A stretch of 64,000 bases of DNA from Fimbriimonadaceae bacterium (GTDB taxonomy: Bacteria > Armatimonadota > Fimbriimonadia > Fimbriimonadales > Fimbriimonadaceae), in contig CAXXNR010000001.1 in the NCBI GenBank assembly GCA_963666135.2, positions 1,513,853-1,577,852 of the forward strand, in the 5' to 3' direction. Positions 2,668-50,153 of the stretch are shown here, in pieces (within the stretch, counting starts at the first letter, position 1; every line of letters starts with the position of its first letter). The notes under the pieces were generated by a model that saw only the letters and a program-made list of their open reading frames with translations, ran no database searches and was not told the DNA's origin. Made by a program: the position numbers and the translations under genes.

Positions 2668-3198
2668 TTACTCGCCTAATCCTGCGTTCATGATCTCGTC
2701 GGCGACGAAAATGGGAGCCTCAAACCGTACGGCAATCGCTATGGCGTCAGACGGACGCGCGTCAAGTTCGATCTCTTCTTTGCCGTTTGCCAGGTAGACC
2801 TTGGCGTAATAAACTGAATTCCACAGGTCGTCAATCACGACGCGCGTGACGCGGTGGCCCAACCTCTCGAGGATATGCTGCATCAGGTCGTGCGACATGG
2901 GTCGATCCGGCCTTGATCCTTCTATGGGAAGGCTGATAGCCTGGGCCTCATAGGCTCCAATTAGGATCGGTAGCTTGCGGACGCCGTCCGTAAGAAGCAC
3001 AAATCGAGACACGTTGCCAGCGCTCTCGGCTGCGAACACGCCTTCGATGGAGACCTCGATAGGCTCGCCCATGTTGCCCGGCTCATGGTCGGGTTCGTCG
3101 CGGTCGTAGGGGAAAAACGACGGCGGCTCGTTCAGATTGTCGGGTCCATTCGGATCCTCAGGCATAGCATTAAGATACCCGCGAATCATAGGCCTCAA
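2668..3198 (-). CDS. bifunctional nuclease (BFN/DUF151) family protein
   Basis: The segment FVLLTDGVRKLPILIGAYEAQAISLPIEG...RPMSHDLM..IL..LG..V..VVIDDL....YYAKV.L......ELDARPSDAIAIAVRFEAPIFV matches the conserved BFN-domain pattern. Confidence 0.8.
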   Translation of the reverse strand: MRPMIRGYLNAMPEDPNGPDNLNEPPSFFPYDRDEPDHEPGNMGEPIEVSIEGVFAAESAGNVSRFVLLTDGVRKLPILIGAYEAQAISLPIEGSRPDRPMSHDLMQHILERLGHRVTRVVIDDLWNSVYYAKVYLANGKEEIELDARPSDAIAIAVRFEAPIFVADEIMNAGLGE

Positions 3199-7913: not shown

Positions 7914-8029
7914 GTGAAGAGGTGTTCCAATATTGTTTAGATATGTCAGGTTCTATTCGTAACTGCCATTAGCCTTCGTTGAACCTCAAGAAAAAGCGAT
8001 GCCAGCCCTATAGCTAGCAGCGCTTCAAC

Positions 8030-9601
8030 TTATCCTATGACGAACTCGCGCATCGCCTGCGGGACCGACGCGTCGAATCCGACAACGTCGAGCATTCCGG
8101 CATCGCGCGGGTCGGCGATCGTGAAGTTGTTGCCTGCCATGGCCACAACGATCAGTCTCGCGTTGATCCCCGACTTCTGCCGGTACTCGGCCAGCGCTTG
8201 CGACGGATGCACCTTGCCGTACCACGTCTCGCTGTCCGTGTAGACCACGAAGACATCGACCTGAAGCTTATGCCTCGTCGCATAAAGCATCGGCAGCGCG
8301 CAGTCGGTAGCCTCGAAAGGCAAGCTCTGCGTTAACCTCAGAGCGTCGGACAGCCGCATCTTTGGCGTCAGGTTCAGCTTGATAAAGCCGCTCGTAAACG
8401 CCATCGGAATGCAGTTTGGCTCTGAAACCATGTTGACCATGGCCATTGCCGTCGCCGCCTCGCTCGCTGTCAAGAGCGTTCCGCCTACGCGCGCCCCCGC
8501 CATCGAACCCGACACGTCGACTCCCAAGAGGAACCGCTTGCCTGTCGGCTCGATGTTCGCAAACGCTGCATAGAACGCCCCATCGAGCGCATCCGAAATG
8601 GCCGGAACCGGAATCCACTGGCCTTTGCCTTTGAACCCGGAACCCGAGCCGTATGTGGACGAAGCGAGCAAGAACGCCATCGGGTGCGCCCGAGAACGCT
8701 TGATCCGCTCCGCCGACTTCAGCTCGTTCAGCACCTTTTGGGTTGCCTCGGACTGTGGAGTCAGCAAGCCGCATTTCGTCATGTTGGCCAGGTTGCGGAC
8801 CATTGCCATCATCGGCATGTCTTCCAGCAACGCTTCCCAAACCGACGGATTCGTCAGGAACTGCGTTGGCACGCATTCGCGAGGCAATCGGTGCTCCCGG
8901 ATCCACTTGACTGCTTCGTCGGGATCCGAGGCCTTGGAAAGCCCCATGAACGCCTCGAGTTTCGCGTTTTCGCTGACGAGTTCGCCGTCGACGATCCACT
9001 TGAAGAGCGTTTTGTGCTCTTCGCTTGCCGGCTTCGGGTGCGCGAGTCGGAGCAAGTCGCGGTGCGACCAGCCTTCTCGCTGCTGGTACTTGATCGCCTG
9101 GTAGGTCAGGCCGTTGACCTCAGCGTCGTTGTACCAGTTCCCGATGGCGCGCCGGAGACCCCGTCCCCATCCGCGCATTTCGCCGCATTCCGAGGCAAAC
9201 TGAAACAGGTGCGTTCCTGTTCGGCACACCTTTCTCAGCGATGCGAGTGCAGCCTGCTTCGTTTTGGCGTCTCCGTGCGATGCGCAGAGGGACAAAGCGA
9301 AGATCGCCGGACCGTTTTTGGGCGCTCTGCCGGAATCGCTGATTTCAACGATTCGGTTGACCACCCTCTGGCCGTCCAGTTTGATCAGGCTCAAGACGTT
9401 CGACGCGTGGTCGAGCGTCAGCTTTCGCTCGCTGATGTAATAGGTGCCGCCTTCGGTTCCCAGGATGAGGAACCGATCAAGCAACGCCCAAGGATTGATC
9501 GCCCAGGCGTAGCCGCCCGCGGAGTTCGGGGTTTGGCCCGCTCCGAAGATCGGATCGCTCTGCGGCGTCTTTCGAATGCTTAAGTATTTGCTGAACTTCA
9601 T
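8030..9601 (-). CDS. rsr: Ro60-related protein Rsr (TROVE domain + vWA domain)
   Basis: MKFSKYLSIRKTPQSDPI...FLILGTEGGTYY...GRAPKNGPAIFAL...THLFQF...RGWGRGLRRAI is TROVE-like. The C-terminal vWA domain has a MIDAS motif (LLGVDVSGSM). ATG 9601 is preceded by GAGGTG. The upstream 123 codons of the track ORF lie over the structured RNA genes. Confidence 0.88.
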   Translation of the reverse strand: MKFSKYLSIRKTPQSDPIFGAGQTPNSAGGYAWAINPWALLDRFLILGTEGGTYYISERKLTLDHASNVLSLIKLDGQRVVNRIVEISDSGRAPKNGPAIFALSLCASHGDAKTKQAALASLRKVCRTGTHLFQFASECGEMRGWGRGLRRAIGNWYNDAEVNGLTYQAIKYQQREGWSHRDLLRLAHPKPASEEHKTLFKWIVDGELVSENAKLEAFMGLSKASDPDEAVKWIREHRLPRECVPTQFLTNPSVWEALLEDMPMMAMVRNLANMTKCGLLTPQSEATQKVLNELKSAERIKRSRAHPMAFLLASSTYGSGSGFKGKGQWIPVPAISDALDGAFYAAFANIEPTGKRFLLGVDVSGSMAGARVGGTLLTASEAATAMAMVNMVSEPNCIPMAFTSGFIKLNLTPKMRLSDALRLTQSLPFEATDCALPMLYATRHKLQVDVFVVYTDSETWYGKVHPSQALAEYRQKSGINARLIVVAMAGNNFTIADPRDAGMLDVVGFDASVPQAMREFVIG

Positions 9602-9740
9602 GTTCTTCACCTCATATGCGGCGGGTCGGGGAGGCATGTGTTCAGGTGTAGGTGTGTCTGCCTTGTCGGACAGGTCAAACCGGTCTGACAATGAAAATCC
9701 TTTCACAGCGAAACAAGCCCCAAAGGGACGAATGCAGCAT

Positions 9741-9806
9741 CCGGGCAAGGGACATCTATGGGGGCTGCCGTGCTTGAAACGATAACCCACAGACTTCGGC
9801 CCGGAA
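9741..9806 (-). ncRNA. Y-RNA-like gene 5 (minimal, about 66 nt, no tRNA-like module)
   Basis: The minus strand reads CCGGGCCGAAGUCUGUGGGUUAUCG...CCCCCAUAGAUGUCCCUUGCCCGG. The 5' CCGGGC-C-GA pairs with 3' UUGCCCGG, leaving a bulged C as in the Ro-binding helix. An upper stem forms between CUGUGGG and CCCAUAG. Ends are +/-5 nt. Confidence 0.7.
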
Positions 9807-9821
9807 GCCGACAAGGAAAGA

Positions 9822-9949
9822 GCCTGGGCAAGGTGTGTCCTTGGGCGTTTAGGCGCTTTACCGATTAAGCTACGTCCTTGCGGACGGCTGGATTCGAAAC
9901 CAGCAACTCCCCGGTTTAGAGACGGTAACCCACGAACATCGGCCCAGGC
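9822..9949 (-). ncRNA. Y-RNA-like gene 4 with tRNA-like module (YrlA-type)
   Basis: 5' GCCUGGGCCGAUGUUCGUGGGUUACCG pairs with 3' CACACCUUGCCCAGGC. Internal elements are a T-arm-like GCUGG-UUUCGAAU-CCAGC, a hairpin GUCCGCAAGGAC and a D-arm-like GUAGCUUAAUCGGUAAAGCGC. Confidence 0.75.
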
Positions 9950-9960
9950 TAGGATGGCGC

Positions 9961-10076
9961 GTGCGGGCAAGGAGCGGCATTAGGATTTCTCCGCCTTTCG
10001 GTCGGAGGGAGTTCCGTCAGGTTTCCCCGCCGGTTGGTGCTACTCTAAGCGATAACCCAAAACCATCGGCCCGCAC
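9961..10076 (-). ncRNA. Y-RNA-like gene 3 (no obvious T-arm)
   Basis: 5' GUGCGGGCCGAUGGUUUUGGGUUAUCG pairs with 3' CUCCUUGCCCGCAC. There is an internal hairpin CUCCG-ACCGAAAGG-CGGAG. Confidence 0.65.
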
Positions 10077-10085
10077 AAGAATGTC

Positions 10086-10211
10086 GAGTCTGGGCAAGTT
10101 GCGCCGCTGGCAAGCGCTCTAACCTCTGAGCTACGTCCTTTCGGACGGCCGGAATCGAACCGGCGACCACTCGCTTAACAGGCGATAATCCAACAGCATC
10201 GGCCCAGACGA
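10086..10211 (-). ncRNA. Y-RNA-like gene 2 with tRNA-like module (YrlA-type)
   Basis: 5' UCUGGGCCGAUGCUGUUGGAUUAUCG pairs with 3' AACUUGCCCAGA. It has a perfect T-arm (GCCGG-UUCGAUU-CCGGC), a hairpin GUCCGAAAGGAC and a D-arm (GUAGCUCAGAGGUUAGAGCGC). Confidence 0.78.
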
Positions 10212-10217
10212 ATCTGA

Positions 10218-10340
10218 GAAGCGCGGGCAAGGGGCGGACTGGGAAAACTTCTAGCCTTTCAGCTTGAAGCGCGAGATTTGAACCCGCTAGCCAATGTTTG
10301 TTGACCTTAACCGATAACCCAGACCTTCGGCCCGCACGAA
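10218..10340 (-). ncRNA. Y-RNA-like gene 1 with T-arm-like module
   Basis: 5' GCGGGCCGAAGGUCUGGGUUAUCGG pairs with 3' CCCCUUGCCCGCGC. It has a T-arm-like GCGGG-UUCAAAU-CUCGC. Confidence 0.7.
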
Positions 10341-10559
10341 CCATGTCAAGCCGGGTTCCATCCCATTCCCGGCGGAATTACAAGATGCTCTCGTTAGGCG
10401 CAAGACAGAGAGTTGTACAAATGCGCTTTGCGAGTGCAAGGAGTAATCTGACGAGCAAAGAAATCAAAAGGTTTCGGTTTTTATGTAAAAAACGAATTTC
10501 GTGGCACTTTCGATGAGCCTAACAGGTTTTCCAGCGGCTTTAGGCGGTAGCTTGTTAGT

Positions 10560-10964
10560 ATGGCCATGTTGCCGACAGTCGTTGTTGCTCTCGATTTGCT
10601 TCCTCATCTCGCGAAATGCGCGAAGGAACGCAAGACAATCACTTATGCCGAGCTTGGAACCTTGGTCGGTAAGTCTGCCTATTACCTCAGCAAGTCGCTC
10701 GATATCTTGAAAGACAAGTTCCTGCTTGCGCACCGTTTGCCTCGGTTGGATGCTCTGATCATCAAGAACCCAACCAAAGGAGCCGCCGACAGGTTCCTCG
10801 ATCCTGGCAGCGATCCAATGACCGCTGAGGAATATGAGAAGCATGTCGAGTCGCTAAGGCAAGAAGTTTACGCCTATGATCGATGGGACGAGATTGTAGA
10901 GAAACTTCAGGCGCATTATGGCGACTCGGAGTATATGAAGCACGCAGTTGCCCTGAAGCAATAA
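10560..10964 (+). CDS. hypothetical protein, possibly a winged-helix DNA-binding fold
   Basis: 134-aa ORF of ordinary composition. KTITYAELGTLVGKSAYYLSKSLDIL looks like a helix-turn-helix segment. The competing antisense ORF 10464-10844 has no recognisable features. Confidence 0.45.
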   Translation: MAMLPTVVVALDLLPHLAKCAKERKTITYAELGTLVGKSAYYLSKSLDILKDKFLLAHRLPRLDALIIKNPTKGAADRFLDPGSDPMTAEEYEKHVESLRQEVYAYDRWDEIVEKLQAHYGDSEYMKHAVALKQ

Positions 10965-10980
10965 GCGGCCGCACCTTTCC

Positions 10981-11283
10981 CTAGTGGATCGCCAGACCGA
11001 ACGGCTCTACGATGCCCGTCATCACACCTTCTGCGATGCACGGATCCTCCTTCATTAAGGCCTCGGCTTCCTCGTCGTTCTCGGCATAGAACACGGCGAT
11101 GCCCGTGATATCGCCTTCTATCGTTCGCCCGGCGAGTACCAAAATGCCATCTTCCTTCAGCTTCAGCAGCCGTTGAAAATGCCTTGAGACGGTGTCCTTC
11201 TCCTCTTCGGTCGGACTGAACGGCATCTCGGGACGCGAAGGCTTCAGGGTAAGCAAATATGCGCGCTTCTGGCTCATACCCAT
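10981..11283 (-). CDS. YciI-family protein
   Basis: About 100 aa. Pattern: YLLTLKP....P.S.EE......HF..L..L...G.LVLAGR.......GI.V..A....EA..L...DP. Confidence 0.7.
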   Translation of the reverse strand: MGMSQKRAYLLTLKPSRPEMPFSPTEEEKDTVSRHFQRLLKLKEDGILVLAGRTIEGDITGIAVFYAENDEEAEALMKEDPCIAEGVMTGIVEPFGLAIH

Positions 11284-11320
11284 TAGGATAAGCCAAACCG
11301 ATGGCCTTAACCAAGGACTT

Positions 11321-11851
11321 CTAGAGCTTTTGGCCGCCGGTTAGACTCGTTGCCCGTCCATCGGCATACGCCGCCGTGCTTCGCGAGTGCCTCGGCGGAT
11401 TTGGCAGCGTCGCTTCCTTCGAATGCGCATTTCTGGAAAGATCAGACGACTCAAAAAGGAGCACTTGCTTATTGATCTCCTTCAGGCTGCCCAGAGCTGC
11501 AAAGCTGAGGCCGTCGGACATGGCGAAGCCGTACTCATCCCTGCCGACGGCGGGACACCGCATCCTAGAGCCAGTGTCTCCATCCCCTTGAGGCACGTAC
11601 TTCTCGACACGGTCCATCCAAGTAGCCGCACCGGGAAAGCAACCGTCGTTCTCCTCCGCGTACATCAGCATTCCGGCCGCGGTTCGCTTCATGTTGGCGA
11701 AACAGGCTGAGTTGAATGCCGTGGTCCGCGAGCTGCGGAATATCGGGAAGAGGATCGCTGACAGCACGAGCAGCACGCCAACGATCAGGAGCACACCAAG
11801 CATCGAGTTCCGTTGAACCATGATGGCCGAATTGCCTGTTTCGCTACTCAT
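11321..11851 (-). CDS. membrane-anchored DUF1559/'H-X9-DG'-like protein
   Basis: N-terminal TM helix followed by ILFPIFRSSR. The C-terminal HSRSTAAYADGRA is like the H-Xn-DG motif. It is a paralog of the next gene. Confidence 0.65.
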   Translation of the reverse strand: MSSETGNSAIMVQRNSMLGVLLIVGVLLVLSAILFPIFRSSRTTAFNSACFANMKRTAAGMLMYAEENDGCFPGAATWMDRVEKYVPQGDGDTGSRMRCPAVGRDEYGFAMSDGLSFAALGSLKEINKQVLLFESSDLSRNAHSKEATLPNPPRHSRSTAAYADGRATSLTGGQKL

Positions 11852-11854
11852 CGG

Positions 11855-12412
11855 TTATCTTATCTGCTCCGGTTTCTTCGACTCGACATGTCCATCCGCA
11901 TAGCCTAAATTGACTTTTGTGTGTCTCCCACTGGTTGGTAACGTCGACAAATCCGAGTGGGCATTCGGCTCGCGCAAGTTGGAGTCAAAAATCATTGGTT
12001 CGTTCTGGGGCATCGCGATCTGGCCTAAGGCTAAGCTGGTTAAGGAGTCGCTATAGGCATAACCATACATGTGTGGAACTCCAGGGCAGTGGAAAACATC
12101 CTCTTTAATGACGTACTTGCGAACGGCATCATTCCAATTTGTCGCGAACGGTAGCTTGTCGTCGTTCTCTGCGGCATACATCAATGCTCCGTTGCTGAGC
12201 TGCTTCAGGTTCGACATGCACATTGTGTTCTTCGCGGAATTCTTGGCTTGCGAGAACACCGGAAAAAGTATAGCTGCTAATATCGGCACAAGCAGGCAGA
12301 AAAAGCCAAGCACGCAAGCCAGAACGATGATTACGATCTTCGTCGAGTTGTTTCTCGGCGGCTGATTAGTCTGAGCGTAGGGCGGCTGCTGGTATGGAGG
12401 AGGTGTCTGCAT
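11855..12412 (-). CDS. membrane-anchored DUF1559/'H-X9-DG'-like protein with Pro/Gln-rich N-terminus
   Basis: MQTPPPYQQPPYAQTNQPP, then a TM helix, then ILFPVFSQAKNSAKNTMCMSNLKQL. The C-terminal motif is GRHTKVNLGYADGHV. Confidence 0.7.
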   Translation of the reverse strand: MQTPPPYQQPPYAQTNQPPRNNSTKIVIIVLACVLGFFCLLVPILAAILFPVFSQAKNSAKNTMCMSNLKQLSNGALMYAAENDDKLPFATNWNDAVRKYVIKEDVFHCPGVPHMYGYAYSDSLTSLALGQIAMPQNEPMIFDSNLREPNAHSDLSTLPTSGRHTKVNLGYADGHVESKKPEQIR

Positions 12413-20332: not shown

Positions 20333-23300
20333 TTATGCCGGGGTTAGGACAATTGGCGCTACCAATATGCCCGTCGGCTTGAGTTGGTACTCGTCCGACC
20401 ATTGGTTTCCCGTTGTTCGCCAGCAGTGCGGACCGTGCCAAGTGAGGTGCGGATCGCAGTTGTGGACCGGTCCAAATGCATTCGCTCGGTTGCCGAACAA
20501 TGTGATATTCAGACAGTGATCGCCTTCCGGCAAGTTGCCAAGCGCAAGCCGATACGGAGGAAAAGCGATCTTGCCCAGTTCCTTGCCGCCCAGCTTGACC
20601 GACAGAAGCGGCGCGCCGAACCATGGCACGTCAACAACCGTTTCCTGGCCGCCCTTGATGGTGCACTTATAGACGATGTTGCCTGTGTAGAACGGCAAGC
20701 CCTGTCCGCAAATGTCGCCGAAGAGTAGCTCGCGAACGGGTTCTACGATCCTAGCTTCGCGGCCGGCCGCTTCAACGCCGAAATCGCCCAACAAGTAGCA
20801 CCATTCCAGGTTCGTCTTGCGGTGGAACGGTAGTTCAACAACCAGTTCGTGGCTGCCGGCTGAGATAGCAGGCATAGGCACGGTGCGAATCGCTTCATCG
20901 ACCCACCATCCGTCGTCCTTGTTACTAACCTCCTTGCCGTCCACCTTGATCTTCAATACCGAAGGATCCTCGACAGCCAGCTTGCTAGCGGGAACATCGA
21001 TCGTGGAATCGATCTTGAATAGAATTTGGACCTGCGCTTTTACGACGCACGGCTCCTTGTCGGTCCATGGCTGGGCGATGCTTCCGGTTACCGGCGGGAG
21101 TTCCAGCCTCGTCCGTATAACGTTCGCCAGCCGTAAAACCTCGATCTTCTCGGACCAAGGCTCATCTCCGATGCGGTATCGCGCCTGATCAAGCAAAAGC
21201 GCATTCGGCTCCGAAAGATCAACCGGCACTGGTGCCGCCAGACGCGCAACTTCCTTATATCGAGTCGGCGCAACAATCACGGGTTCAGGAACCGTCAGCC
21301 TGCCAGGGGTCATCGTAAACAACGCGCTTCCGGTACCCTCAAATCGCCAGGGAATGACCGTGCGGCCGCCAACTTGCTTTACCGAAACAGAGCCGATGGA
21401 GCCGTCAAACGTATCAAGCATCTCAACCGTGTACTCGCCAGCCACCGATATCTCGACATCTCGCCCGAACTCCCGGTCGGTGTTGCAGATGAACACGTGT
21501 TTCTTTCCGCTGTCGTCGCGCATCTGATAGAGCAGCGAATCGGCTTCGCGACCGTCGGTTCGCGTCACAACGAGGTCGGCGAATGGTCTGACGGCCTCGA
21601 GAACCGACACCTTGTCGAACGGGATCTTGGTGCATCTTCGCGCCAGCTCAATGGCCCTCAGGGAAGAAACGGCATCGACCAAAGAGGGAATCTCGCCCGC
21701 GAAAATAACCTTTCCGCCCTTATCGGCATACTTTTCGAGGAGGTCAAGGGTTGTCGAGCGGATAGTCCGCATGCCGGGCACCACGACTGCCTTATAGGAC
21801 ATAAAGCCAACACCAAAACCCTCTCGCTCGGATGCCAGCGAAGGTAAAAGCGCTTCTGATACATAGTCGTAGTCGACCATGCCGAAGAGCAGCCAAGAGG
21901 TGATCTCCTCAAACTGCTTCTCGCGCTGTTGGCGCAGGCTCCCGGTTTGATCCATCGGCCCCATGCAAAGCCAATAGCTCTCGATCGGATGAATCACCGC
22001 AATCGGAACTTGTGGATTGCCCCGCGTCATCGCCACGTTAACGCGGGCGAAATGGTCCTCAACCAACGTATATTCTGCCCACCACGGAGACTGATATCCG
22101 ATAGCCGCCGGGTAGTCGCGCTTGGCTTCGCCTGCCATCGAAACCCAGGCTAGGTGTGGCACGCGGACTGTGATGCCCAGCGCCGCTTGCCAGTCGCCTT
22201 GGTTCTTGTGGCCGTTAAAGGTGTAATTCCAGCTCGTGACGCCGTAGAGCTCGCTCATCACGCCCGGACGGCCCATTTGGCGAACCACACTCTGCGCTTG
22301 CTTGGCGGTTCCATATTCTCGGCTGTCGCAAAGCATGTCGATGCCGGGCAACTGGAACCCGCGATAAGCCCGCATGCACTCGCCGACTGCACCGGTTTGC
22401 GATTCGAGAGTCTGCTCAGCCATCATGTGGCCTGTCAGAGCGATGCCGTTCTCTGCACACCAGTTGCCGATCGTGTCGCAGAACGCTTCCGTAAACCTCT
22501 CGGCAGTGTGATCTTGGTATCTGTATCTGGCAACGCTAACAACCCCGTCCGCTCGCTCCCAGAACAGCTCGGGCAGACTGTCCAAAATGTCGTCGCCGTA
22601 GGTTGCCTTATAGGTAGCTGCAAAGTCGTCGGTCCAGGGCATGAAAAGGTCTTTCTTCTGGTCGGCGCGGTCCAAGTAGCGCTTCTCGCTGAACTGCGGC
22701 TCATCGGTGAAGATCGCCGGAACGACGTTGCCGAACCACTTCCCGATAGCCTTCTTATACGGTTCATGTGTGACCTCAATAAACCTGCTGACCGCGTCTT
22801 TGCTCATCGTGTCGAGATATGCCTGGTTGTTGAACCACGAACTCGACTTGCCAATCTCCAGGTAGGCGTACCACTTGGCTCCTTTAGCTTCAGCCTTGGC
22901 GTCTATGCGCTTGCCAGAAACCAGCTTGCCGTCTTCAAGAACGACATCGTAGACTGCCAGCAGCGTGCCGTCCTCGTTTCTGCTGGCGTAGGCGCGCGAG
23001 ATCGTCATGAGCTCCTTGGCGTCGCCTGAATAGGGCTCGGGAGTGAACAGCAAATGCTTCGTGCGGTGTTTGTGTTCGCAGGTGACGAGGCCGCCTGCGA
23101 ATCCGGAAGGCCATCGGTCTTCGTCATAGAGCCAAGCCAGCATCTTCTCGTCTTCGGCCTTCTCGCAGCATGCTTTGACAATACTGAGGAACTCCTCGCC
23201 CATGTATTCGGTGGCCAAGCCGGTTCGCGGATGCATATGGAATCCGCCCATGCCCATCTTCTTCAATATCTCGATTTGGCGGAATAGCTGGTCTTTGTCG

Positions 23301-23416
23301 AGCTTGTTGTTCCACGACCAGAACGGCGTGCCGCGGTATTCCGAGGTCGGATTGGTAAAAAGCGCACGGTCGAGTTCGGCTGCGCTGTTCTTCGGATAGA
23401 GTTCGTAGCGTTTCAT
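20333..23416 (-). CDS. large glycoside hydrolase (GH106-like N-terminal catalytic region; family assignment tentative)
   Basis: GTPFWSWNNKLDKDQLFRQIEILKKMGMGGFHMHPRTGL...YMGEEF...AWLYDEDRWPSGFAGG is the N-terminal signature I associate with the GH106-type rhamnosidase family. The protein is 1027 aa. Confidence 0.6.
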   Translation of the reverse strand: MKRYELYPKNSAAELDRALFTNPTSEYRGTPFWSWNNKLDKDQLFRQIEILKKMGMGGFHMHPRTGLATEYMGEEFLSIVKACCEKAEDEKMLAWLYDEDRWPSGFAGGLVTCEHKHRTKHLLFTPEPYSGDAKELMTISRAYASRNEDGTLLAVYDVVLEDGKLVSGKRIDAKAEAKGAKWYAYLEIGKSSSWFNNQAYLDTMSKDAVSRFIEVTHEPYKKAIGKWFGNVVPAIFTDEPQFSEKRYLDRADQKKDLFMPWTDDFAATYKATYGDDILDSLPELFWERADGVVSVARYRYQDHTAERFTEAFCDTIGNWCAENGIALTGHMMAEQTLESQTGAVGECMRAYRGFQLPGIDMLCDSREYGTAKQAQSVVRQMGRPGVMSELYGVTSWNYTFNGHKNQGDWQAALGITVRVPHLAWVSMAGEAKRDYPAAIGYQSPWWAEYTLVEDHFARVNVAMTRGNPQVPIAVIHPIESYWLCMGPMDQTGSLRQQREKQFEEITSWLLFGMVDYDYVSEALLPSLASEREGFGVGFMSYKAVVVPGMRTIRSTTLDLLEKYADKGGKVIFAGEIPSLVDAVSSLRAIELARRCTKIPFDKVSVLEAVRPFADLVVTRTDGREADSLLYQMRDDSGKKHVFICNTDREFGRDVEISVAGEYTVEMLDTFDGSIGSVSVKQVGGRTVIPWRFEGTGSALFTMTPGRLTVPEPVIVAPTRYKEVARLAAPVPVDLSEPNALLLDQARYRIGDEPWSEKIEVLRLANVIRTRLELPPVTGSIAQPWTDKEPCVVKAQVQILFKIDSTIDVPASKLAVEDPSVLKIKVDGKEVSNKDDGWWVDEAIRTVPMPAISAGSHELVVELPFHRKTNLEWCYLLGDFGVEAAGREARIVEPVRELLFGDICGQGLPFYTGNIVYKCTIKGGQETVVDVPWFGAPLLSVKLGGKELGKIAFPPYRLALGNLPEGDHCLNITLFGNRANAFGPVHNCDPHLTWHGPHCWRTTGNQWSDEYQLKPTGILVAPIVLTPA

Positions 23417-26946: not shown

Positions 26947-29550
26947 ATGCTTTCGGCGATATTGCACCTTTTCGGCCGGCAGTGGCTTTTTAGTGCCTTT
27001 TGTTACTCAGAGAGAAGGCCTAAACGAATTACGCTGTATACTGCATCTGTGCTTTCACCTATTAGTAGAATTGCTCGCCTGTGCTTTCCGCTAGCCATAG
27101 CGACTTTGTTCTGCCATGTTCAGAGCGCTGATCTTGCTCAGTGCCCGACCTTAGCGAACTGGGATGCCAGCAAAAGCGGCCCGCTGCTTGTTCTCGAGCC
27201 AGATAAGGTGAAATCCAAGACCGGCACGAACCTGGCCGACTTCAAGCGCAAGCTTGTCGAAATCGGCGGCATCCACGCCATCGTCCCCGACACCATGGTT
27301 ATCATCGACGAGTCGGGACTCAGCAATCCGGACCTCTACGATGGCTTGCCGATGCATTCAAAGGTGCTCTACCTGCTGTCGACTCTCGATAAGGGACAAT
27401 TTGGCAAGGTGAGCGGCGATGGACTTTGCCTAACCGATTTGCGAGACGAACAGGTTCGGGTACTCGATTCGATCTTACCAAAGCCGTTCAAATTCGAGAA
27501 GACAGCCAGCGGAGTATCGACCAAGACAACTCTGAGCGATGCCGATCGAACAAAAGTGAAGCTAAAAGTAAGCCGGTTTGTGGCGTTCATGCTACAAAGC
27601 AACGAAGGCGGATATTCGCAGTTCTCGGCAAACCGAGGAATGTCCAACATAGCCAATCCAACTTACCGACGCGATATCTCGGCTGAGTTTGATACGCCAA
27701 ACACCCTTGGAGTGACCCTAAAGAAGTCGGTGCCGAACAATGTCAAAGCATCCGACATCGACTACAAGTCTCCGGCGCTCGATAAACAAATCGACCTGTT
27801 GCCAACCGAAAAGACCATTGACCTGCTGAAGAGGATCGAACGATCAACAGGCAGAGAGCTGTTTGCCGACATACGCGTGGCGAACCGCATGGTCGTGTCA
27901 AAGGGCGGCAAAGCAAAGGCAGGCGATGTTCTTCAAGCGATCGCCTTTTGCGTCACTGGAACCTATCGCAAAGTCGGCTCGATGTATCTTCTGACAAGCG
28001 ACCTGACGGGTCTGGGCACACGCGCCGTCCGCATTGCGCTGTGGAATGGAAAACTACGGAAGAGCATCTGGGAGCAAGAGTCTAGATGGCGCGAGAAGCT
28101 GGCGCAATCCGGTGCGATGTCCAAGGTTGGCTTCGACTCCAAAGATCCTTTGGCCCCAAACGACAGTGTCAAGAACTACCTTGAGGCCAATCGTCAGAAC
28201 ATCTATCCCATGAAGTTCGACTTCGACTTCACCAAGTTGCCAGCCAATGCTCAGGATTTCCTGCGGAAGCAGAATGAAATGTATGAGAGCCGCTACACGT
28301 TCGATAAAGTCAGTCTTGAAGCGGGTATCGGCTATGGATTCGTGCTTCCAGACGGCAACAACTTGGTTCTTGAGCATCAGGATTTCGGACCGCTCGATAT
28401 GTTTGAACCGAGAAACCGCCAGGCCGCCGAGCCCCCAGAGGAAGTTAAAGGAAACTTCGACTTGGCTTCGGTCAAAGGTCAGAAGCCTCTTGCGCTGAAA
28501 CTCGCCGACAAAAGCCAAGCCGCCAAAGCGGTCACAACCGCGAAGGCCTATGGCTTCAGTGAGCTTTGGATTGAGTCTAGGTCCAAGCAGACCATCGAAG
28601 AAGCGGTCAAACGAGGCAAAACATCAGGAATCGCCGTTCGTCTCGTTGTCCAACCCTTCGCTTTGGGCGAGGAAAGCACAAAAGGTGAAGACCTTAGCAT
28701 TCTAGGCGAGAACGGCAATCAGATTGGAAAGAGAATCCTAGATAGGGCAATGTCCGAATCGATCAAGGACATGTTGCCGCCGAAACCGATTAGTCGCACA
28801 CTTTGTCCAGAAACGGCAATGAGCCCATCTTGGATCAATCGATTCGTCGATCTTGCCAAAACCGGAGATCTCGCTGGAATTGTCGTGCTCGACACATTGC
28901 CGCGAGGATATACGAAGCAGCGGATTTCGGGAACAAGCCTTCAACCGTTTGCCCAAGCGCTGTTTGGCTATTCGTTGAATGCCAGAGAGCAGAGCATTCG
29001 GAGGTCGAGTATCGATCCGATCGACATCGCACCAGAGGAGTGCTACACCGGTGCAGACTTAAGGCAGCCGTTCTTCCTCGACGACGGGTTGCGCGGCGGA
29101 AATTCGACTTACGACGGCCGGGATGTTCCGTTGCCCGAGATCTATAACTTCAATGCTGCCTATTCGAAAACTCTGTCCGAAAGCAATGAGAAGGCAACGC
29201 TCGCCATCCTGAACCAGTTGTCCGATGCCGCAGGAACCATTCCGGTTTGGGTCGAAGCTCGATTCGGCCAGAGCAACCCGCTTGAGACGATTACGGCGTT
29301 GCTTGAGTGGAAGAAAGGCATGAAACTGGCGCAGGTTAGCCCGGAAACAGAGAACGGCATTGCGGGTTGCCTCGCTCTTGTCATGCCTGCTCCAACCAAG
29401 CGCGATGCTAATACGTTTAAGTGGTGGGGCGGCGTTTGCGGCTATACCGAATCGGACTCGCGATTTGGCTTCGTGGCCCACAACGCCCTGGGCATTGGCC
29501 TCAACCAGCTAGATTCTTACCTGAGCTTGCTGTTCAAACGACAACTATAG
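26947..29550 (+). CDS. large hypothetical secreted protein (no recognisable domain)
   Basis: 867-aa uninterrupted ORF with a hydrophobic N-terminal segment (ARLCFPLAIATLFCHVQSA). It is divergent from the 912-aa gene. Confidence 0.55.
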   Translation: MLSAILHLFGRQWLFSAFCYSERRPKRITLYTASVLSPISRIARLCFPLAIATLFCHVQSADLAQCPTLANWDASKSGPLLVLEPDKVKSKTGTNLADFKRKLVEIGGIHAIVPDTMVIIDESGLSNPDLYDGLPMHSKVLYLLSTLDKGQFGKVSGDGLCLTDLRDEQVRVLDSILPKPFKFEKTASGVSTKTTLSDADRTKVKLKVSRFVAFMLQSNEGGYSQFSANRGMSNIANPTYRRDISAEFDTPNTLGVTLKKSVPNNVKASDIDYKSPALDKQIDLLPTEKTIDLLKRIERSTGRELFADIRVANRMVVSKGGKAKAGDVLQAIAFCVTGTYRKVGSMYLLTSDLTGLGTRAVRIALWNGKLRKSIWEQESRWREKLAQSGAMSKVGFDSKDPLAPNDSVKNYLEANRQNIYPMKFDFDFTKLPANAQDFLRKQNEMYESRYTFDKVSLEAGIGYGFVLPDGNNLVLEHQDFGPLDMFEPRNRQAAEPPEEVKGNFDLASVKGQKPLALKLADKSQAAKAVTTAKAYGFSELWIESRSKQTIEEAVKRGKTSGIAVRLVVQPFALGEESTKGEDLSILGENGNQIGKRILDRAMSESIKDMLPPKPISRTLCPETAMSPSWINRFVDLAKTGDLAGIVVLDTLPRGYTKQRISGTSLQPFAQALFGYSLNAREQSIRRSSIDPIDIAPEECYTGADLRQPFFLDDGLRGGNSTYDGRDVPLPEIYNFNAAYSKTLSESNEKATLAILNQLSDAAGTIPVWVEARFGQSNPLETITALLEWKKGMKLAQVSPETENGIAGCLALVMPAPTKRDANTFKWWGGVCGYTESDSRFGFVAHNALGIGLNQLDSYLSLLFKRQL

Positions 29551-46255: not shown

Positions 46256-47668
46256 ATGGAATACTTACGTCGCGCGTCTTTCTTTACCGTTCTGTCTGTA
46301 GCACTTGTCTTGGGTTGCCACCGAGATTCCCAGCCAATGGACCAGGATGGCAAGACCAAAGTGAACCTCCCTTCTCCGTGGGCAACATCATCGCCGAAGG
46401 AACAAGGCGGTTTGAGACTGGTCGCAATTCAGCCAACGATACCTGCCGAGTTCTCGCATCTGTTGAACTACGAGAACTGGCCGAAAAACCACAAGGACAA
46501 TCCAAATCAGTTCATTTGGCTTGAGTCGTTGACTAAGGAAAATAATGAACTCCTAAATGACTTTGTCCGCATTCGCTTCGGTCTGGTCGGCAAAGACGGA
46601 GAGTTTGCCACGATATTTCGCGATATTGTCGATTCAAACCAAAACTCCAACACGGTCTTCGCCCTTGAGGTTCCTCCAAACCCAAGTCCCAACTACCATG
46701 GAAGCGAACTCGTGGCCATGGATGGCGCGAAAGTTCTGGGCAGGTGGGTTATTGACGGAATGCCTACTCCTCAGAAGCAAATTGGAGACGAGGAAAAGGC
46801 GGTACTGTCTGGTGAAGCCAACGGGATGAGAGTCGCATGTGTGAGTAGCCAACCGTATCGTCTATACGGAAACAAAGCACCAAATATCTCATTCCGTCAT
46901 TACTTCCATACATTGGCGATAACCGACTCCAAGTCTGGAAAGCCCGTCGACCTGAGCAACTATAACATCTTGTCAAAGAACACTAGGTCAACCTGGGAAG
47001 CTAAACCTCAACAAGAGAGTCTTTGCCAGCAAGTAGCCGGCAAGGTCGGCCAGGTTCTTCTGAGTGACGGCAACCAGTTCCTGTCGGATACAAAGATGAT
47101 GGAGTATGAGATTACTCTTCAGAAGTTCGCGACTTACGATGAAGAGATTCGAATCAAGAACCTTAGCATAGAACGCTTGGTATGGGACTCAAACCATCCA
47201 AACACATTCAGCTTCATAACGAGCAACGCTACAGCACAAGATTTTGAAACTCCAAGCGGAGTGAAGCTTACTATCCCGGCTTACGATCGGGCAAATTGCT
47301 CAGGACAAAACTGGATCGGCATTGGTGTTCAGTTTCCGACCGGGTACAAAAACCTTATCATTAAGGCTTCACCACTGTATAAAAAGTACCGTAAACCAGT
47401 TAATATTATCTTGTTCCACCCCAGCTTTCCCCAGATCGGCCAATCGATATCTTCATCGTCAAGCGATGATTTCTTGACATTTGGCATGGTCATTCGTGAT
47501 CCTCTTCGCAAAGGAAAATGGATCGAACCGTCCTTTCCTGTCGTTGTCCGTCAAAAAGCGATTATTGAAGAAGGAAAGGTGAACCTTCGGCTTCCGGTAG
47601 AGCATGTCAAGGTCTCGGCAAAATCACCCGCTAAGAGCCTTGGCGGCGGCAAGGCAAAGGCACCCTAG
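46256..47668 (+). CDS. hypothetical lipoprotein
   Basis: FFTVLSVALVLGC is a lipobox. 470 aa with no recognisable domain. The 3' end overlaps the convergent gene by 45 nt. Confidence 0.5.
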   Translation: MEYLRRASFFTVLSVALVLGCHRDSQPMDQDGKTKVNLPSPWATSSPKEQGGLRLVAIQPTIPAEFSHLLNYENWPKNHKDNPNQFIWLESLTKENNELLNDFVRIRFGLVGKDGEFATIFRDIVDSNQNSNTVFALEVPPNPSPNYHGSELVAMDGAKVLGRWVIDGMPTPQKQIGDEEKAVLSGEANGMRVACVSSQPYRLYGNKAPNISFRHYFHTLAITDSKSGKPVDLSNYNILSKNTRSTWEAKPQQESLCQQVAGKVGQVLLSDGNQFLSDTKMMEYEITLQKFATYDEEIRIKNLSIERLVWDSNHPNTFSFITSNATAQDFETPSGVKLTIPAYDRANCSGQNWIGIGVQFPTGYKNLIIKASPLYKKYRKPVNIILFHPSFPQIGQSISSSSSDDFLTFGMVIRDPLRKGKWIEPSFPVVVRQKAIIEEGKVNLRLPVEHVKVSAKSPAKSLGGGKAKAP

Positions 47669-48514
47669 ACCGTAGTAGGTGTATTCGAGATCGGCATCGG
47701 GGTCGGCGGCGCACGAGCGGAACCCGCCCTCGGACGTCGCCATCGAGCCGGCAAACTGCACGCTGCGCTTCAGTGGTTCTTTCTTGAGCGTGCCGATCAT
47801 AGCTAGAGCTGTCATCGAAGTGAAGGTCGAGAGAAGGTCGGGTATCGGCGCTTCGGCGTGCGCTCGGAAGCCGCCGTCGGGGTGTTCCATCGATTGGAGA
47901 AAGTCTGAGGCGTCATATAGGTCCCAGTTGATCTCCGGATTCGTATGCATCAGCACGACTCGGTATAGATAGCCGACCGCCGCACAGGTCGAATTGGTTT
48001 GCGATTTGCCTTGCGATCCGCAGTCGATGAATCCGCCGTCGCTTTGCTGCAGGTCGAGAATGCCCTGGATGGAAGCTTCGCTCGTTCTATGTCCTTGGTC
48101 GGCCATGTCTTCGCACAAAGCTCCTAAAAACGTCCAATAGGCGCTGGGCTCGCCTACCGTTCTCGTGAGACATCCCGAATCTAGCCTCCATTTGGCCAGG
48201 CAATCCTGAGTGCCGCGCGGCGAGTCTTGACCGCATATCTCGGCAATCGACAGCCTCGAAAAGCACTCCGGGACGTCGGCTATTGGGCCGTCATAGAGCG
48301 AGTAGAGAACCGATTCGCCAATCTCCTCCGGCCTTGTTAGGGCCAGCAGGCGCAGGGCGAAATCGGTGTAATAGGGGTCGGACGAACCTGCGCGGCCCCG
48401 ATAGCCGCCATCTTGCTGGCGAAACGATAGGACAAAGTCGGCGATGCGGCTCTTTAGCGCAGGGCTCAGGCCGCGTGAGCCTTCGAGCAAGATCGCGTCG
48501 ATGATCTGGCTCAT
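47624..48514 (-). CDS. prenyltransferase/squalene-oxidase-repeat (alpha-alpha toroid) protein, protein-prenyltransferase-beta-like
   Basis: Repeated Q.DGG(F/Y) motifs (FRQQDGGYRGRAG, LQQSDGGFIDCG, MEHPDGGFRAH, ATSEGGFRSC). ATG overlaps the upstream stop (ATGA). Confidence 0.7.
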   Translation of the reverse strand: MSQIIDAILLEGSRGLSPALKSRIADFVLSFRQQDGGYRGRAGSSDPYYTDFALRLLALTRPEEIGESVLYSLYDGPIADVPECFSRLSIAEICGQDSPRGTQDCLAKWRLDSGCLTRTVGEPSAYWTFLGALCEDMADQGHRTSEASIQGILDLQQSDGGFIDCGSQGKSQTNSTCAAVGYLYRVVLMHTNPEINWDLYDASDFLQSMEHPDGGFRAHAEAPIPDLLSTFTSMTALAMIGTLKKEPLKRSVQFAGSMATSEGGFRSCAADPDADLEYTYYGLGCLCLAAAKALSG

Positions 48515-50151: not shown

Positions 50152-50153
50152 AG

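What the first reader, a model, noticed from the sequence alone, without database searches (positions are those of the whole stretch)
8030..10340. Ro60 ortholog (rsr) preceded by a tandem array of five Y-RNA-like genes
Seen in sequence: the 523-aa TROVE+vWA protein starts at ATG 9601. Immediately upstream on the same strand are five consecutive units, about 66-128 nt each and 5-15 nt apart. Each begins with (C/G)NGGGCCGA(A/U)G..N..GGGUUA(U/C)CG and ends with CUUGCCC(N)n, which is complementary to its own 5' end and leaves a bulged C. The 5' strand is nearly identical to the metazoan Y RNA Ro-binding strand GGUCCGAAGGUAGUGAGUUAUC. Established knowledge: bacterial Rsr loci in Deinococcus, Salmonella and Mycobacterium smegmatis encode Y RNAs adjacent to rsr. 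These RNAs tether Rsr to PNPase and gate its cavity. Five tandem copies is at or above the highest count I know of for such loci (four in M. smegmatis). The rtcBA RNA-repair genes that often accompany rsr are absent here. Standard ORF calling buries the array inside a 646-aa ORF and a 99-aa antisense-looking ORF.
Basis: partly seen in the sequence, partly recalled or inferred. Interest (0 to 1): 0.8.

Follow-up and report, generated by a model that had tools for sequence, protein, structure and literature searches.

The report
Five Y-RNA genes upstream of rsr
A soil-type bacterium (phylum Armatimonadota) carries a gene for the Ro60 RNA-quality-control protein preceded by five different small "Y RNA" genes in a row; this is a clean but larger-than-usual example of a known system, and such arrays prove common in uncultured bacteria.

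Summary
On the minus strand, rsr (8030-9601, 523 aa, TROVE plus Ro60-type vWA) is preceded by exactly five Y-RNA-like units: 10338-10220, 10210-10087, 10077-9960, 9950-9821 and 9807-9738, with 9-13 nt spacers.

Each unit has the Ro-binding stem GGGCCGA(A/U)G...GG(G/A)UUA(U/C)C / CUUGCCC with a bulged C. No Rfam family reaches its gathering score. YrlA still matches units 2 and 4 at E about 3e-6, and the nematode sbRNA model matches all five.

A covariance model built here from related rsr loci finds these five and nothing else in 64 kb. It gives 228 hits in 92 other rsr loci, all on the rsr strand. The stem covaries strongly.

The units differ:
- two are tRNA-like (YrlA type);
- one has a T-arm only;
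- one has three hairpins;
- one is a short hairpin.

Five exceeds any experimentally characterised bacterial locus, where two canonical Y RNAs are known. It is not a record: 15 of 92 loci have at least five and two have seven. "Four in M. smegmatis" is not supported by the paper I read. rtcBA is absent from the window.

Verdict: new members of a known kind, moderately interesting.

The parts
8030..9601 (-). rsr: Ro60 ortholog, 523 aa, TROVE ring plus vWA domain. The MIDAS motif DVSGSM is intact. K171/R175/H188 align to X. laevis Ro60 K170/R174/H187.
   Evidence: Pfam TROVE and vWA_Ro60. PDB matches 9nen, 1yvp and 2nvo at E 1e-117 to 1e-122. These residues are invariant in 45 clade members.
10220..10338 (-). 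Y RNA unit U1 (119 nt). Ro-binding stem plus an inner domain of three hairpins. The middle hairpin is a T-arm-like GCGGGUUCAAAUCUCGC. There is no D-arm.
   Evidence: R2 49.8 bits, E 4e-9. sbRNA model 19 bits. Fold -46.7 kcal/mol, z -3.0. Same type found in L010, L001, L094 and L093.
10087..10210 (-). Y RNA unit U2 (124 nt), YrlA type. Ro-binding stem plus T-arm, AS stem-loop GUCCGAAAGGAC and D-arm GUAGCUCAGAGGUUAGAGC.
   Evidence: Rfam YrlA 36.5 bits, E 4e-6. R2 43.7 bits, and this unit was not in the R2 training set. T/AS/D pairing is supported by covariation in 32 units.
9960..10077 (-). Y RNA unit U3 (118 nt). Ro-binding stem plus three inner hairpins. A GAAA-loop hairpin sits where U1 has the T-arm. 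Shares its terminal stem GUGCGGG with U1.
   Evidence: R2 54.1 bits. sbRNA model 22.8 bits. Fold z -3.5. Alignment to U1.
9821..9950 (-). Y RNA unit U4 (130 nt), YrlA type. T-arm UGCUGGUUUCGAAUCCAGC, AS stem-loop GUCCGCAAGGAC, and a D-arm GUAGCUUAAUCGGUAAAGC that carries a compensatory U-A pair.
   Evidence: Rfam YrlA 36.9 bits, E 3e-6, and Y_RNA 23.3 bits. R2 50.1 bits, and this unit was not in the R2 training set. Covariation.
9738..9807 (-). Y RNA unit U5 (70 nt). A short hairpin made of the Ro-binding stem and upper helix only. It is the rsr-proximal unit and belongs to the class best conserved across loci (YrlB/Yrn2-like).
   Evidence: R2 56.1 bits and R1 56.9 bits. sbRNA model 30.2 bits, Y_RNA 19.3 bits. 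In 35 of 56 loci with at least 2 units, the rsr-proximal unit is 85 nt or shorter.
10450..10475 (-). Putative promoter of the array-rsr transcript: GAAACCTTTTGATTTCTTTGCTCGTC, that is GAAAC-N17-CGTC, which resembles ECF-sigma promoters. It lies 137 nt upstream of U1. This is an inference.
   Evidence: The same motif with the same spacing lies 92 and 59 nt upstream of the first unit in L010 and L012, whose Rsr is 69% and 65% identical. No sigma-70 consensus was found.
9602..9737 (-). Leader between U5 and rsr. It contains a weak terminator-like hairpin at 9729-9717 (GUCCCUUUGGGGC followed by UUGUUUCGCU) and the SD GAGGUG at 9613-9608.
   Evidence: Terminator scan. That scan found fewer sites than the shuffles, so the support is weak. 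Sequence read.
8000..8019 (-). Terminator-like hairpin plus T-run just after the rsr stop codon. Probably the end of the transcription unit.

Best explanation
This is an rsr (Ro60) locus of an Armatimonadota bacterium. Five distinct non-coding Y RNA genes lie head to tail directly upstream of rsr on the same strand.

Most likely mechanism:
1. One promoter about 137 nt upstream of U1 drives a single precursor: leader, U1 to U5, then rsr. The promoter may be an ECF-sigma-type, stress-responsive one.
2. Endonucleases cut in the 9-13 nt spacers and release five RNAs of 70-130 nt.
3. Each RNA uses its conserved terminal helix to dock on the outer surface of the Rsr ring. The helix is GGGCCGA(A/U)G paired with CUUGCCC, with a bulged C. 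Docking gates the central cavity.
4. The inner domains differ: two are tRNA-like, one has a T-arm only, one has three hairpins, and one is minimal. They act as adaptors that tether Rsr to PNPase or to other partners.

What is shown: the Rsr protein, the five units, their common covarying helices, the tRNA-like modules of U2 and U4, strand and position specificity, and purifying selection on the array.

What is inferred: co-transcription, processing, Rsr binding, and which effectors are recruited.
For: Protein. TROVE plus vWA_Ro60, with E 1e-122 to solved Ro60 structures. K171/R175/H188 align to X. laevis K170/R174/H187.

RNA hits.
- Sub-threshold but significant Rfam hits of YrlA, sbRNA and Y_RNA fall on exactly these units.
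- Model R2 was built from other loci's units plus three of the window's. It finds all five at 44-56 bits and nothing else in 64 kb. U2 and U4 were not in its training set.
- R2 gives 228 hits in 92 rsr loci. All are on the rsr strand, 216 upstream and 12 downstream, with none on the opposite strand across 487 kb.

Covariation.
- Hand-seeded MAFFT alignment of 18 short units: 92.6% paired, 9 pairs with double changes, 0 of 500 shuffles as high.
- 121 distinct units: 94% paired against at most 45% when slid, covariation score 0.61 against at most 0.135.
- The T-arm/AS/D-arm module of 32 YrlA-type units, including U2 and U4: 96.9% paired, covariation 0.64 against at most 0.145.

Selection. Against the 97% ortholog L008, the array differs at 1.3% of sites. 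The rsr CDS differs at 4.6%, with 52 of 72 changes at third positions. The downstream spacer differs at 11%.

Precedent (PMC4201824).
- Bacterial Y RNAs are encoded next to rsr.
- They are made from polycistronic precursors in M. smegmatis and D. radiodurans.
- One per species is tRNA-like and one is a long hairpin.
- The GNCGAAN0-1G motif is present here as GCCGAAG or GCCGAUG.
Against: - No Rfam family reaches its gathering score. YrlA scores 37 bits against a cutoff of 69. Y_RNA reaches at most 23 and sbRNA at most 30, both against 38.
- There is no expression or binding data.
- No sigma-70 promoter was found, and the terminator-like hairpins found are no more than expected by chance.
- The A3 covariation was measured on a model-fitted alignment, which leans towards the structure.
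- R2 was partly trained on U1, U3 and U5.
- No PNPase gene is in the window, so the effector cannot be checked.
Confidence: 0.85

Rival explanations
1. The array is mainly a cis-acting 5' leader of the rsr mRNA. The five Rsr-binding helices stay in the transcript and let Rsr autoregulate its own translation or stability. They do not act as free trans-acting Y RNAs.
For: The units are on the rsr strand with spacers of only 9-13 nt. No promoter or convincing terminator lies between the units and rsr. The last unit ends a median of 65 nt before rsr across loci.
Against: In M. smegmatis and D. radiodurans, upstream Y RNAs are cut out of polycistronic precursors and accumulate as Rsr-bound RNAs (PMC4201824). 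In 12 cases here the units lie downstream of rsr, as in Salmonella. A leader role cannot explain that. The elaborate and differing inner domains, including tRNA mimics, are not needed for a simple operator. The two roles are not mutually exclusive.
Confidence: 0.08
2. Only some units are functional Y RNAs, for example the three that correspond to the F. ginsengisoli set (U1 or U3, U2 or U4, and U5). The others are decaying products of a recent block duplication.
For: U1/U3 share the terminal stem GUGCGGG. U2/U4 share CUGGG and the AS stem GUCCGNAAGGAC. This suggests that a two-unit block was duplicated. U3 has lost the T-loop. Copy number varies from 1 to 5 among close relatives.
Against: All five keep an intact Ro-binding stem and score 44-56 bits. 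The whole array is 3.5 times less diverged than the CDS between the window and L008. U1/U3 and U2/U4 inner domains are only 66% and 69% identical, so the duplication is old and both copies have survived. Arrays of at least five units recur in 15 of 92 loci.
Confidence: 0.12
3. The units are not Y RNAs. They are tRNA pseudogenes, a repeat or mobile-element family with terminal inverted repeats, or part of a longer protein-coding ORF (the 646-aa and 99-aa ORFs).
For: U2 and U4 contain T-arm and D-arm sequences. The ends of each unit are inverted repeats. ORF listing shows 8030-9970 (646 aa) and 10045-10344 (99 aa) covering the array.
Against: - ARAGORN finds no tRNA in the window.
- The T-arm precedes the D-arm, the permuted order typical of YrlA.
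- The motif occurs nowhere else in 64 kb. In 92 other loci it occurs only next to rsr and only on its strand.
- The helices vary by compensatory changes.
- The ORF extension and the 99-aa ORF have no Pfam hit.
- All relatives start at the position of ATG 9601.
- TRF finds no simple tandem repeat.
Confidence: 0.02

Closest known systems
Bacterial Y RNAs of the YrlA subfamily (Rfam RF02553; S. Typhimurium and M. smegmatis YrlA; Chen et al. 2014, PMC4201824)
   Same: - Encoded next to rsr on the same strand.
- The terminal stem carries the GNCGAAN0-1G motif.
- The inner domain has a T-arm, a variable AS stem-loop and a D-arm in the permuted order. This applies to U2 and U4.
- Upstream of rsr, and probably cut from a precursor, as in M. 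smegmatis.
   Different: - Scores are only 37 bits against the Rfam cutoff of 69.
- The Ro-binding stem is closer to the metazoan/sbRNA consensus (GGGCCGAAG...GGGUUAUC / CUUGCCC) than to the enterobacterial YrlA stem.
- There are two YrlA-type genes in one locus.
- There is no rtcBA.
D. radiodurans Yrn1/Yrn2 and the small RNAs a-e upstream of rsr
   Same: - Several small RNAs are encoded upstream of rsr on the same strand and made from a polycistronic precursor.
- The Ro-binding helix is metazoan-like.
- Some have a T-arm only (like U1) and one is a long hairpin (Yrn2, like U5).
- The known function is to tether Rsr to PNPase.
   Different: In D. radiodurans only two of the five RNAs have the canonical stem. 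Here all five do. No tRNA gene is embedded in the array. The D. radiodurans sequences themselves were not compared here.
Metazoan Y RNAs (RF00019) and nematode stem-bulge RNAs (RF01656)
   Same: The 5' strand GGNCCGAAG..GUGGGUUAU and the 3' strand CUUGNCC are shared, with a bulged C and a two-helix stem. The sbRNA model aligns end to end with all five units.
   Different: All scores are below the gathering threshold. These are bacterial genes, not Pol III genes. The inner domains are unrelated.
rsr-yrlBA-rtcBA RNA repair operon (Salmonella; PMC7790460)
   Same: Rsr together with several Y RNAs in one transcription unit.
   Different: No RtcB, RtcA or RtcR in the window. The Y RNAs are upstream rather than downstream of rsr. 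The cultured relative F. ginsengisoli does have RtcB downstream and a LigT-like gene upstream.

Membership tests
Bacterial Y RNA (Rsr-associated ncRNA, as used by Chen et al. 2013/2014) | Encoded adjacent to an rsr/Ro60 gene, on the same strand | tested here: met
   All five units lie 136-737 nt upstream of ATG 9601 on the minus strand. The same arrangement holds for 228 of 228 hits in 92 loci.
Bacterial Y RNA (Rsr-associated ncRNA, as used by Chen et al. 2013/2014) | Long stem formed by the 5' and 3' ends that contains the conserved Ro60-binding sequence (GNCGAAN0-1G, bulged helix) | tested here: met
   GCCGAAG or GCCGAUG is present in all five, paired with CUUGCCC and leaving a bulged C.
Bacterial Y RNA (Rsr-associated ncRNA, as used by Chen et al. 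2013/2014) | Stem maintained by compensatory changes in related loci | tested here: met
   (MAFFT alignment, 18 sequences): 0 of 500 shuffles reach the observed values. (121 sequences): 16 of 18 pairs show double changes, and 94% of cells are paired against at most 45% when slid.
Bacterial Y RNA (Rsr-associated ncRNA, as used by Chen et al. 2013/2014) | Accumulates as a discrete small RNA that is bound and stabilised by Rsr | not testable with these tools
   Needs northern blots or RNA-seq and Rsr co-immunoprecipitation.
YrlA subfamily (Rfam RF02553) | tRNA-like inner module: T-arm, AS stem-loop, D-arm | tested here: met
   Met for U2 and U4 only. The Rfam alignment pairs all three stems, and covariation was measured on 32 such units. 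U1 has a T-arm only. U3 and U5 have neither.
YrlA subfamily (Rfam RF02553) | Score at or above Rfam's gathering threshold (69 bits) | tested here: not met
   36.9 and 36.5 bits (E 3e-6 and 4e-6). This is an operational cutoff tuned to the seed taxa. The score is lost mostly in the Ro-binding stem.
Metazoan Y RNA (RF00019) / nematode sbRNA (RF01656) | Score at or above the gathering threshold (38 bits each) | tested here: not met
   Y_RNA scores 23.3 and 19.3 bits. sbRNA scores 19-30.2 bits on all five units. This is a resemblance of the Ro-binding stem only.
Ro60/Rsr protein | TROVE ring plus C-terminal vWA domain with a MIDAS motif; conserved basic residues of the RNA-binding surfaces | tested here: met
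   Pfam domains. PDB 1yvp, 9nen and 2nvo at E<=1e-117. DVSGSM is present. K171/R175/H188 align to X. laevis K170/R174/H187. The roles of those residues are taken from my own recollection of Wolin-lab mutants and were not tested here.
rsr-Y RNA-rtcBA RNA repair operon | RtcB ligase and/or RtcA cyclase in the same operon | tested here: not met
   No RtcB or RtcA Pfam domain in any ORF of at least 280 aa in the window, nor in the neighbouring genes.
tRNA genes | Cloverleaf with an anticodon arm, detected by ARAGORN | tested here: not met
   0 tRNA or tmRNA genes in the window.

The most novel reading that the evidence does not exclude
Multi-gene Y RNA arrays may be a widespread and so far undescribed organisation of rsr loci in uncultured bacteria. 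Arrays of three to at least seven units occur in phyla such as Armatimonadota, Chloroflexota, Gemmatimonadota and Proteobacteria. They are built from recurring classes: T-arm only, tRNA-like YrlA, and a short rsr-proximal hairpin. The five structurally distinct Y RNAs here would then be a combinatorial adaptor set. It would let one Rsr ring be tethered to several different effectors, not only PNPase, under control of a stress (ECF-sigma-type) promoter and independently of rtcBA.
Probability: 0.3. Interest if true: 0.6.

Novelty: new member of a known kind. Interest (0 to 1): 0.45.

Why it matters
Bacterial Y RNAs have been studied experimentally in only three species, each with two canonical Y RNAs. 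How one Ro60 ring is directed to different partners remains an open question.

This locus shows five intact, differing Y RNAs in one compact transcription unit without the RNA-repair genes. The survey done here shows that arrays of this kind are common:
- 83 of 92 rsr loci have at least one unit.
- 15 of 92 have at least five.

These arrays are invisible to Rfam at its thresholds. That gives three practical results:
- a covariance model of the Ro-binding module that annotates such RNAs across phyla;
- a natural set of 'same anchor, different adaptor' RNAs for testing the tether model;
- a cultured relative, Fimbriimonas ginsengisoli, with a three-unit version for experiments.

This extends known biology. 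It is not a new kind of system.

Tried and rejected
- Rfam at gathering thresholds over the whole window gave no hits. E-value mode was needed.
- Model R1 with filters off lost the long units, because the hit-length limit is set by the 70-position model. With default filters on the whole window it found only 3 of 5. I therefore rebuilt it as R2 from 127 hits.
- TRF found no tandem repeat. The units are too divergent, with inner domains 25-69% identical.
- The sigma-70 promoter scan found none. The two terminator-like sites are fewer than the shuffles give.
- The single-protein scan of genome contigs returned only 7 loci. A clade alignment was used for the metagenome scan instead.
- The locus of P0008 had no DNA available.
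- Three Wolin-lab reviews (PMC10870794, PMC6047535, PMC6542706) are not held. I therefore could not check whether arrays of more than four units have been mentioned in reviews. A full-text search found no paper describing them.
- Rejected readings: tRNA genes or pseudogenes, a coding N-terminal extension or the 99-aa ORF, and a dispersed repeat family.
- The GAAAC-N17-CGTC motif is not enriched overall (7 on the plus strand, 14 on the minus strand in 487 kb). It is found upstream of arrays only in the closest relatives. I keep it as a lead, not a finding.
Full report
**1. What is in the sequence**

The finding lies on the minus strand. The ORF from ATG 9601 to the stop at 8030 encodes a 523-aa protein.
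- It hits Pfam TROVE (1.4e-46) and the Ro60-type vWA domain (7.2e-63).
- It matches the solved structures of human and Xenopus Ro60 and of Deinococcus Rsr at E 1e-122 to 1e-117.
- Its closest relatives are 520-530 aa proteins of Armatimonadota/Fimbriimonadaceae. They align over the whole length and start at the same methionine.
- The longer 646-aa ORF that starts at TTG 9970 is therefore an artefact. Its extra 122 residues have no Pfam hit.
- K171, R175 and H188 align to X. laevis K170, R174 and H187. They are invariant in 45 clade members. From memory, these are the residues used in Y-RNA-binding and cavity mutants. That part is recollection, not a test.

**2. The five units**

Reading the minus strand upstream of rsr shows five units. 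Each starts with 4-5 variable bases, then GGGCCGA(A/U)G, 4-7 bases, and GG(G/A)UUA(U/C)CG. Each ends with CUUGCCC plus 4-5 bases complementary to its own start.

- The strict 5' motif occurs four times against 0.00 expected by chance. The fifth unit has a one-base-shorter spacing.
- All five fold with the terminal helix and an upper helix, with z-scores of -3.0 to -3.5.
- Rfam at gathering thresholds reports nothing in the window.
- In E-value mode, YrlA (RF02553) matches units 4 and 2 end to end at 36.9 and 36.5 bits (E 3e-6 and 4e-6; cutoff 69).
- The nematode stem-bulge RNA model matches all five at 19-30 bits, and Y_RNA matches units 4 and 5 (cutoff 38 for both).
- ARAGORN finds no tRNA.

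**3. A purpose-built model and related loci**

I fetched 92 other rsr loci from genomes and metagenomes, all oriented with rsr on the plus strand.

A strict regular expression already found the module only next to rsr and only on its strand. From 18 short units I built model R1. From its 127 hits I built R2.

On the whole 64-kb window, R2 finds exactly five matches and nothing else at E<=1:

| Unit | Coordinates | Bits |
|---|---|---|
| U1 | 10338-10220 | 49.8 |
| U2 | 10210-10087 | 43.7 |
| U3 | 10077-9960 | 54.1 |
| U4 | 9950-9821 | 50.1 |
| U5 | 9807-9738 | 56.1 |

U2 and U4 and their orthologs were not in the training alignment, so those two hits are independent.

On the 92 loci (487 kb), R2 gives 228 hits at E<=0.01. 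All are on the rsr strand, 216 upstream and 12 downstream. The empty opposite strand is the control.

**4. Covariation**

- On the MAFFT alignment of 18 short units with a hand-drawn structure, 92.6% of cells pair and 9 of 18 pairs show double changes. No shuffle out of 500 reaches the observed values, and slid controls pair at 36-48%.
- On the 121 distinct sequences of A3, 94% of cells pair against at most 45% when slid. 16 of 18 pairs have double changes, and the covariation score is 0.61 against at most 0.135. This alignment is model-fitted and so leans towards the structure.
- The outer four pairs vary freely (for example CUGC/GCAG, GAUG/CAUC, GUGC/GCAC). The GGGCC/GCCC core and the G-U and A-U pairs beyond the bulged C are nearly fixed. 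This is what a protein-recognised helix should look like.

That test is therefore passed.

**5. The inner domains differ**

- **U2 and U4** carry a T-arm (GGUUCGAUUCC / GGUUUCGAAUCC), a short AS stem-loop (GUCCGNAAGGAC) and a D-arm (GUAGCUCAG..GGUUAGAGC). The order is the permuted one that defines YrlA.
  - In an alignment of 32 such modules from many loci, 96.9% of cells pair. The T and AS stems covary (score 0.64 against at most 0.145) and the D stem is fixed.
  - U4's D stem itself carries a compensatory C-G to U-A change.
- **U1** has a T-arm-like hairpin flanked by two other hairpins, with no D-arm.
- **U3** has the same three-hairpin layout but a GAAA loop where the T-loop would be.
- **U5** is just the two helices closed by a loop. 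It belongs to the class best conserved across loci, and in 35 of 56 multi-unit loci this class sits next to rsr.

This matches Chen et al. 2014. They found that each characterised species has one tRNA-like Y RNA and one long-hairpin Y RNA, and that some others have a T-arm only.

**6. Evolution of the array**

- The cultured relative Fimbriimonas ginsengisoli (Rsr 59% identical) has three units in the order T-arm-only, YrlA, short, then rsr.
- The window has T-arm-only, YrlA, three-hairpin, YrlA, short.
- U1 and U3 share the terminal stem GUGCGGG. U2 and U4 share CUGGG and the same AS stem. The U1-U2 and U3-U4 blocks align along their length.
- I infer an old duplication of a two-unit block, after which U3 lost its T-loop. 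Inner-domain identity between the paralogs is only 66-69%.
- The whole array differs from the 97% ortholog L008 at only 1.3% of sites. The rsr CDS differs at 4.6%, mostly at third codon positions, and the downstream spacer at 11%. All five are therefore under purifying selection.
- Copy number among close relatives varies: 5 (L008, L009, L094), 4 (L010, L001), 3 (L012, L093), and 1-2 in L095 and L013.

**7. Is five exceptional?**

Relative to experiments, yes. S. Typhimurium, M. smegmatis and D. radiodurans each have two canonical Y RNAs. D. radiodurans has three further, non-canonical small RNAs upstream (PMC4201824).

Relative to sequence data, no.
- 83 of 92 loci have at least one unit.
- 15 have at least five, 4 have six, and 2 have seven (L026, L084). 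Contig ends and the 3-kb flanks often truncate the count.
- Half of all neighbouring pairs are 20 nt or less apart.
- Labelled genomes with 3-4 units include Fimbriimonadaceae, Longimicrobium, Caldilineaceae, Anaerolineae and an alphaproteobacterium.

I found no paper in the held library that describes such arrays. The main reviews are not held, so I cannot claim this is unreported.

**8. Transcription and context**

- No sigma-70 consensus was found, and the terminator-like hairpins found are no more than chance gives.
- A conserved block GAAAC-N17-CGTC lies 137 nt upstream of U1 (10475-10450). It recurs with identical spacing 92 and 59 nt upstream of the first unit in L010 and L012.
- It resembles ECF-sigma promoters. 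That resemblance is from my own knowledge and is an inference. It would fit the stress induction known for rsr loci.
- The gene upstream (10560-10964, plus strand) is divergent. The array and rsr therefore form their own unit, which probably ends at the hairpin at 8019-8000.
- No RtcB, RtcA or PNPase domain occurs in any ORF of at least 280 aa in the window. F. ginsengisoli, by contrast, has RtcB just downstream and a LigT-like gene upstream of its array.

**9. Verdict**

The interpretation as an rsr locus with five Y RNA genes is supported.

Formally, the units fail Rfam's score thresholds. They meet the biological criteria that can be tested in silico:
- position and strand relative to rsr;
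- the Ro-binding motif in a covarying bulged helix;
- a tRNA-like module in two of them.

Binding and expression remain untested.

This is a new member of a known kind. Its value lies in the size and diversity of the array, the absence of rtcBA, and the wider pattern of multi-unit arrays that the survey uncovered.

Noticed in passing
window 10450-10475 (minus strand); L010 1811-1836; L012 2475-2500: A conserved GAAAC-N17-CGTC block (TGAAACCTTT...CGTC) lies 59-137 nt upstream of the first Y RNA unit in the window and in two loci whose Rsr is 65-69% identical. It resembles ECF-sigma promoters. It is absent upstream of arrays in more distant loci.
   Followed up: partly
L026 212-1489; L084 146-1547; also L015, L019, L053, L073: Arrays of six or seven Y-RNA-like units lie upstream of rsr in metagenomic contigs, several of them cut by the contig end. 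15 of 92 loci have at least five units. Multi-unit arrays appear to be a general feature that I could not find described in the held literature.
   Followed up: partly
L093 (Fimbriimonas ginsengisoli CP007139.1, 4273745-4281325): The cultured relative has a LigT-like 2H phosphoesterase gene, then three Y RNA units (2374-2478 T-arm only, 2490-2621 YrlA type, 2639-2708 short), then rsr, then RtcB. It is an experimentally tractable version of the locus, and it includes the RNA-repair genes that the window lacks.
   Followed up: partly
L012 2886-3020 versus the annotated rsr start at 3001 (P0006, 552 aa): The database protein P0006 is annotated with an N-terminal extension that overlaps the last Y RNA unit by 20 nt. 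The same kind of mis-annotation was noted for M. smegmatis in PMC4201824.
   Followed up: no
L002 3109-3756, L005 2175-2509, L046 5786-5923, L040, L082, L089: In a minority of loci (12 of 228 hits) the units lie downstream of rsr, as in Salmonella. These include a Haliangium MAG and a gammaproteobacterial MAG.
   Followed up: no
window 9808-10338: U1+U2 and U3+U4 look like an old duplication of a two-unit block. They share terminal stems and an AS stem. U3 has a GAAA tetraloop hairpin where U1 has the T-arm. In L010 the two YrlA-type units have nearly identical tRNA-like modules, which suggests lineage-specific duplication or gene conversion.
   Followed up: partly
window 47624-52367 (minus strand): A cluster of prenyltransferase-fold, polyprenyl synthetase (fused to DUF116) and squalene-hopene cyclase genes. 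It is probably a hopanoid or polyprenoid biosynthesis locus.
   Followed up: no
window 20333-23416 (minus strand), 26947-29550 (plus strand), 46256-47668 (plus strand): Large ORFs of 1027, 867 and 470 aa with no Pfam hit at E<=1e-5.
   Followed up: no
window 10560-12412: The genes upstream of the array are small and mostly uncharacterised. They are a divergent 134-aa ORF with no Pfam hit, a 100-aa YCII-domain protein, and ORFs of 176 and 185 aa with no Pfam hit. The same set is syntenic in the 97% ortholog L008, but not in L010 or L012.
   Followed up: no
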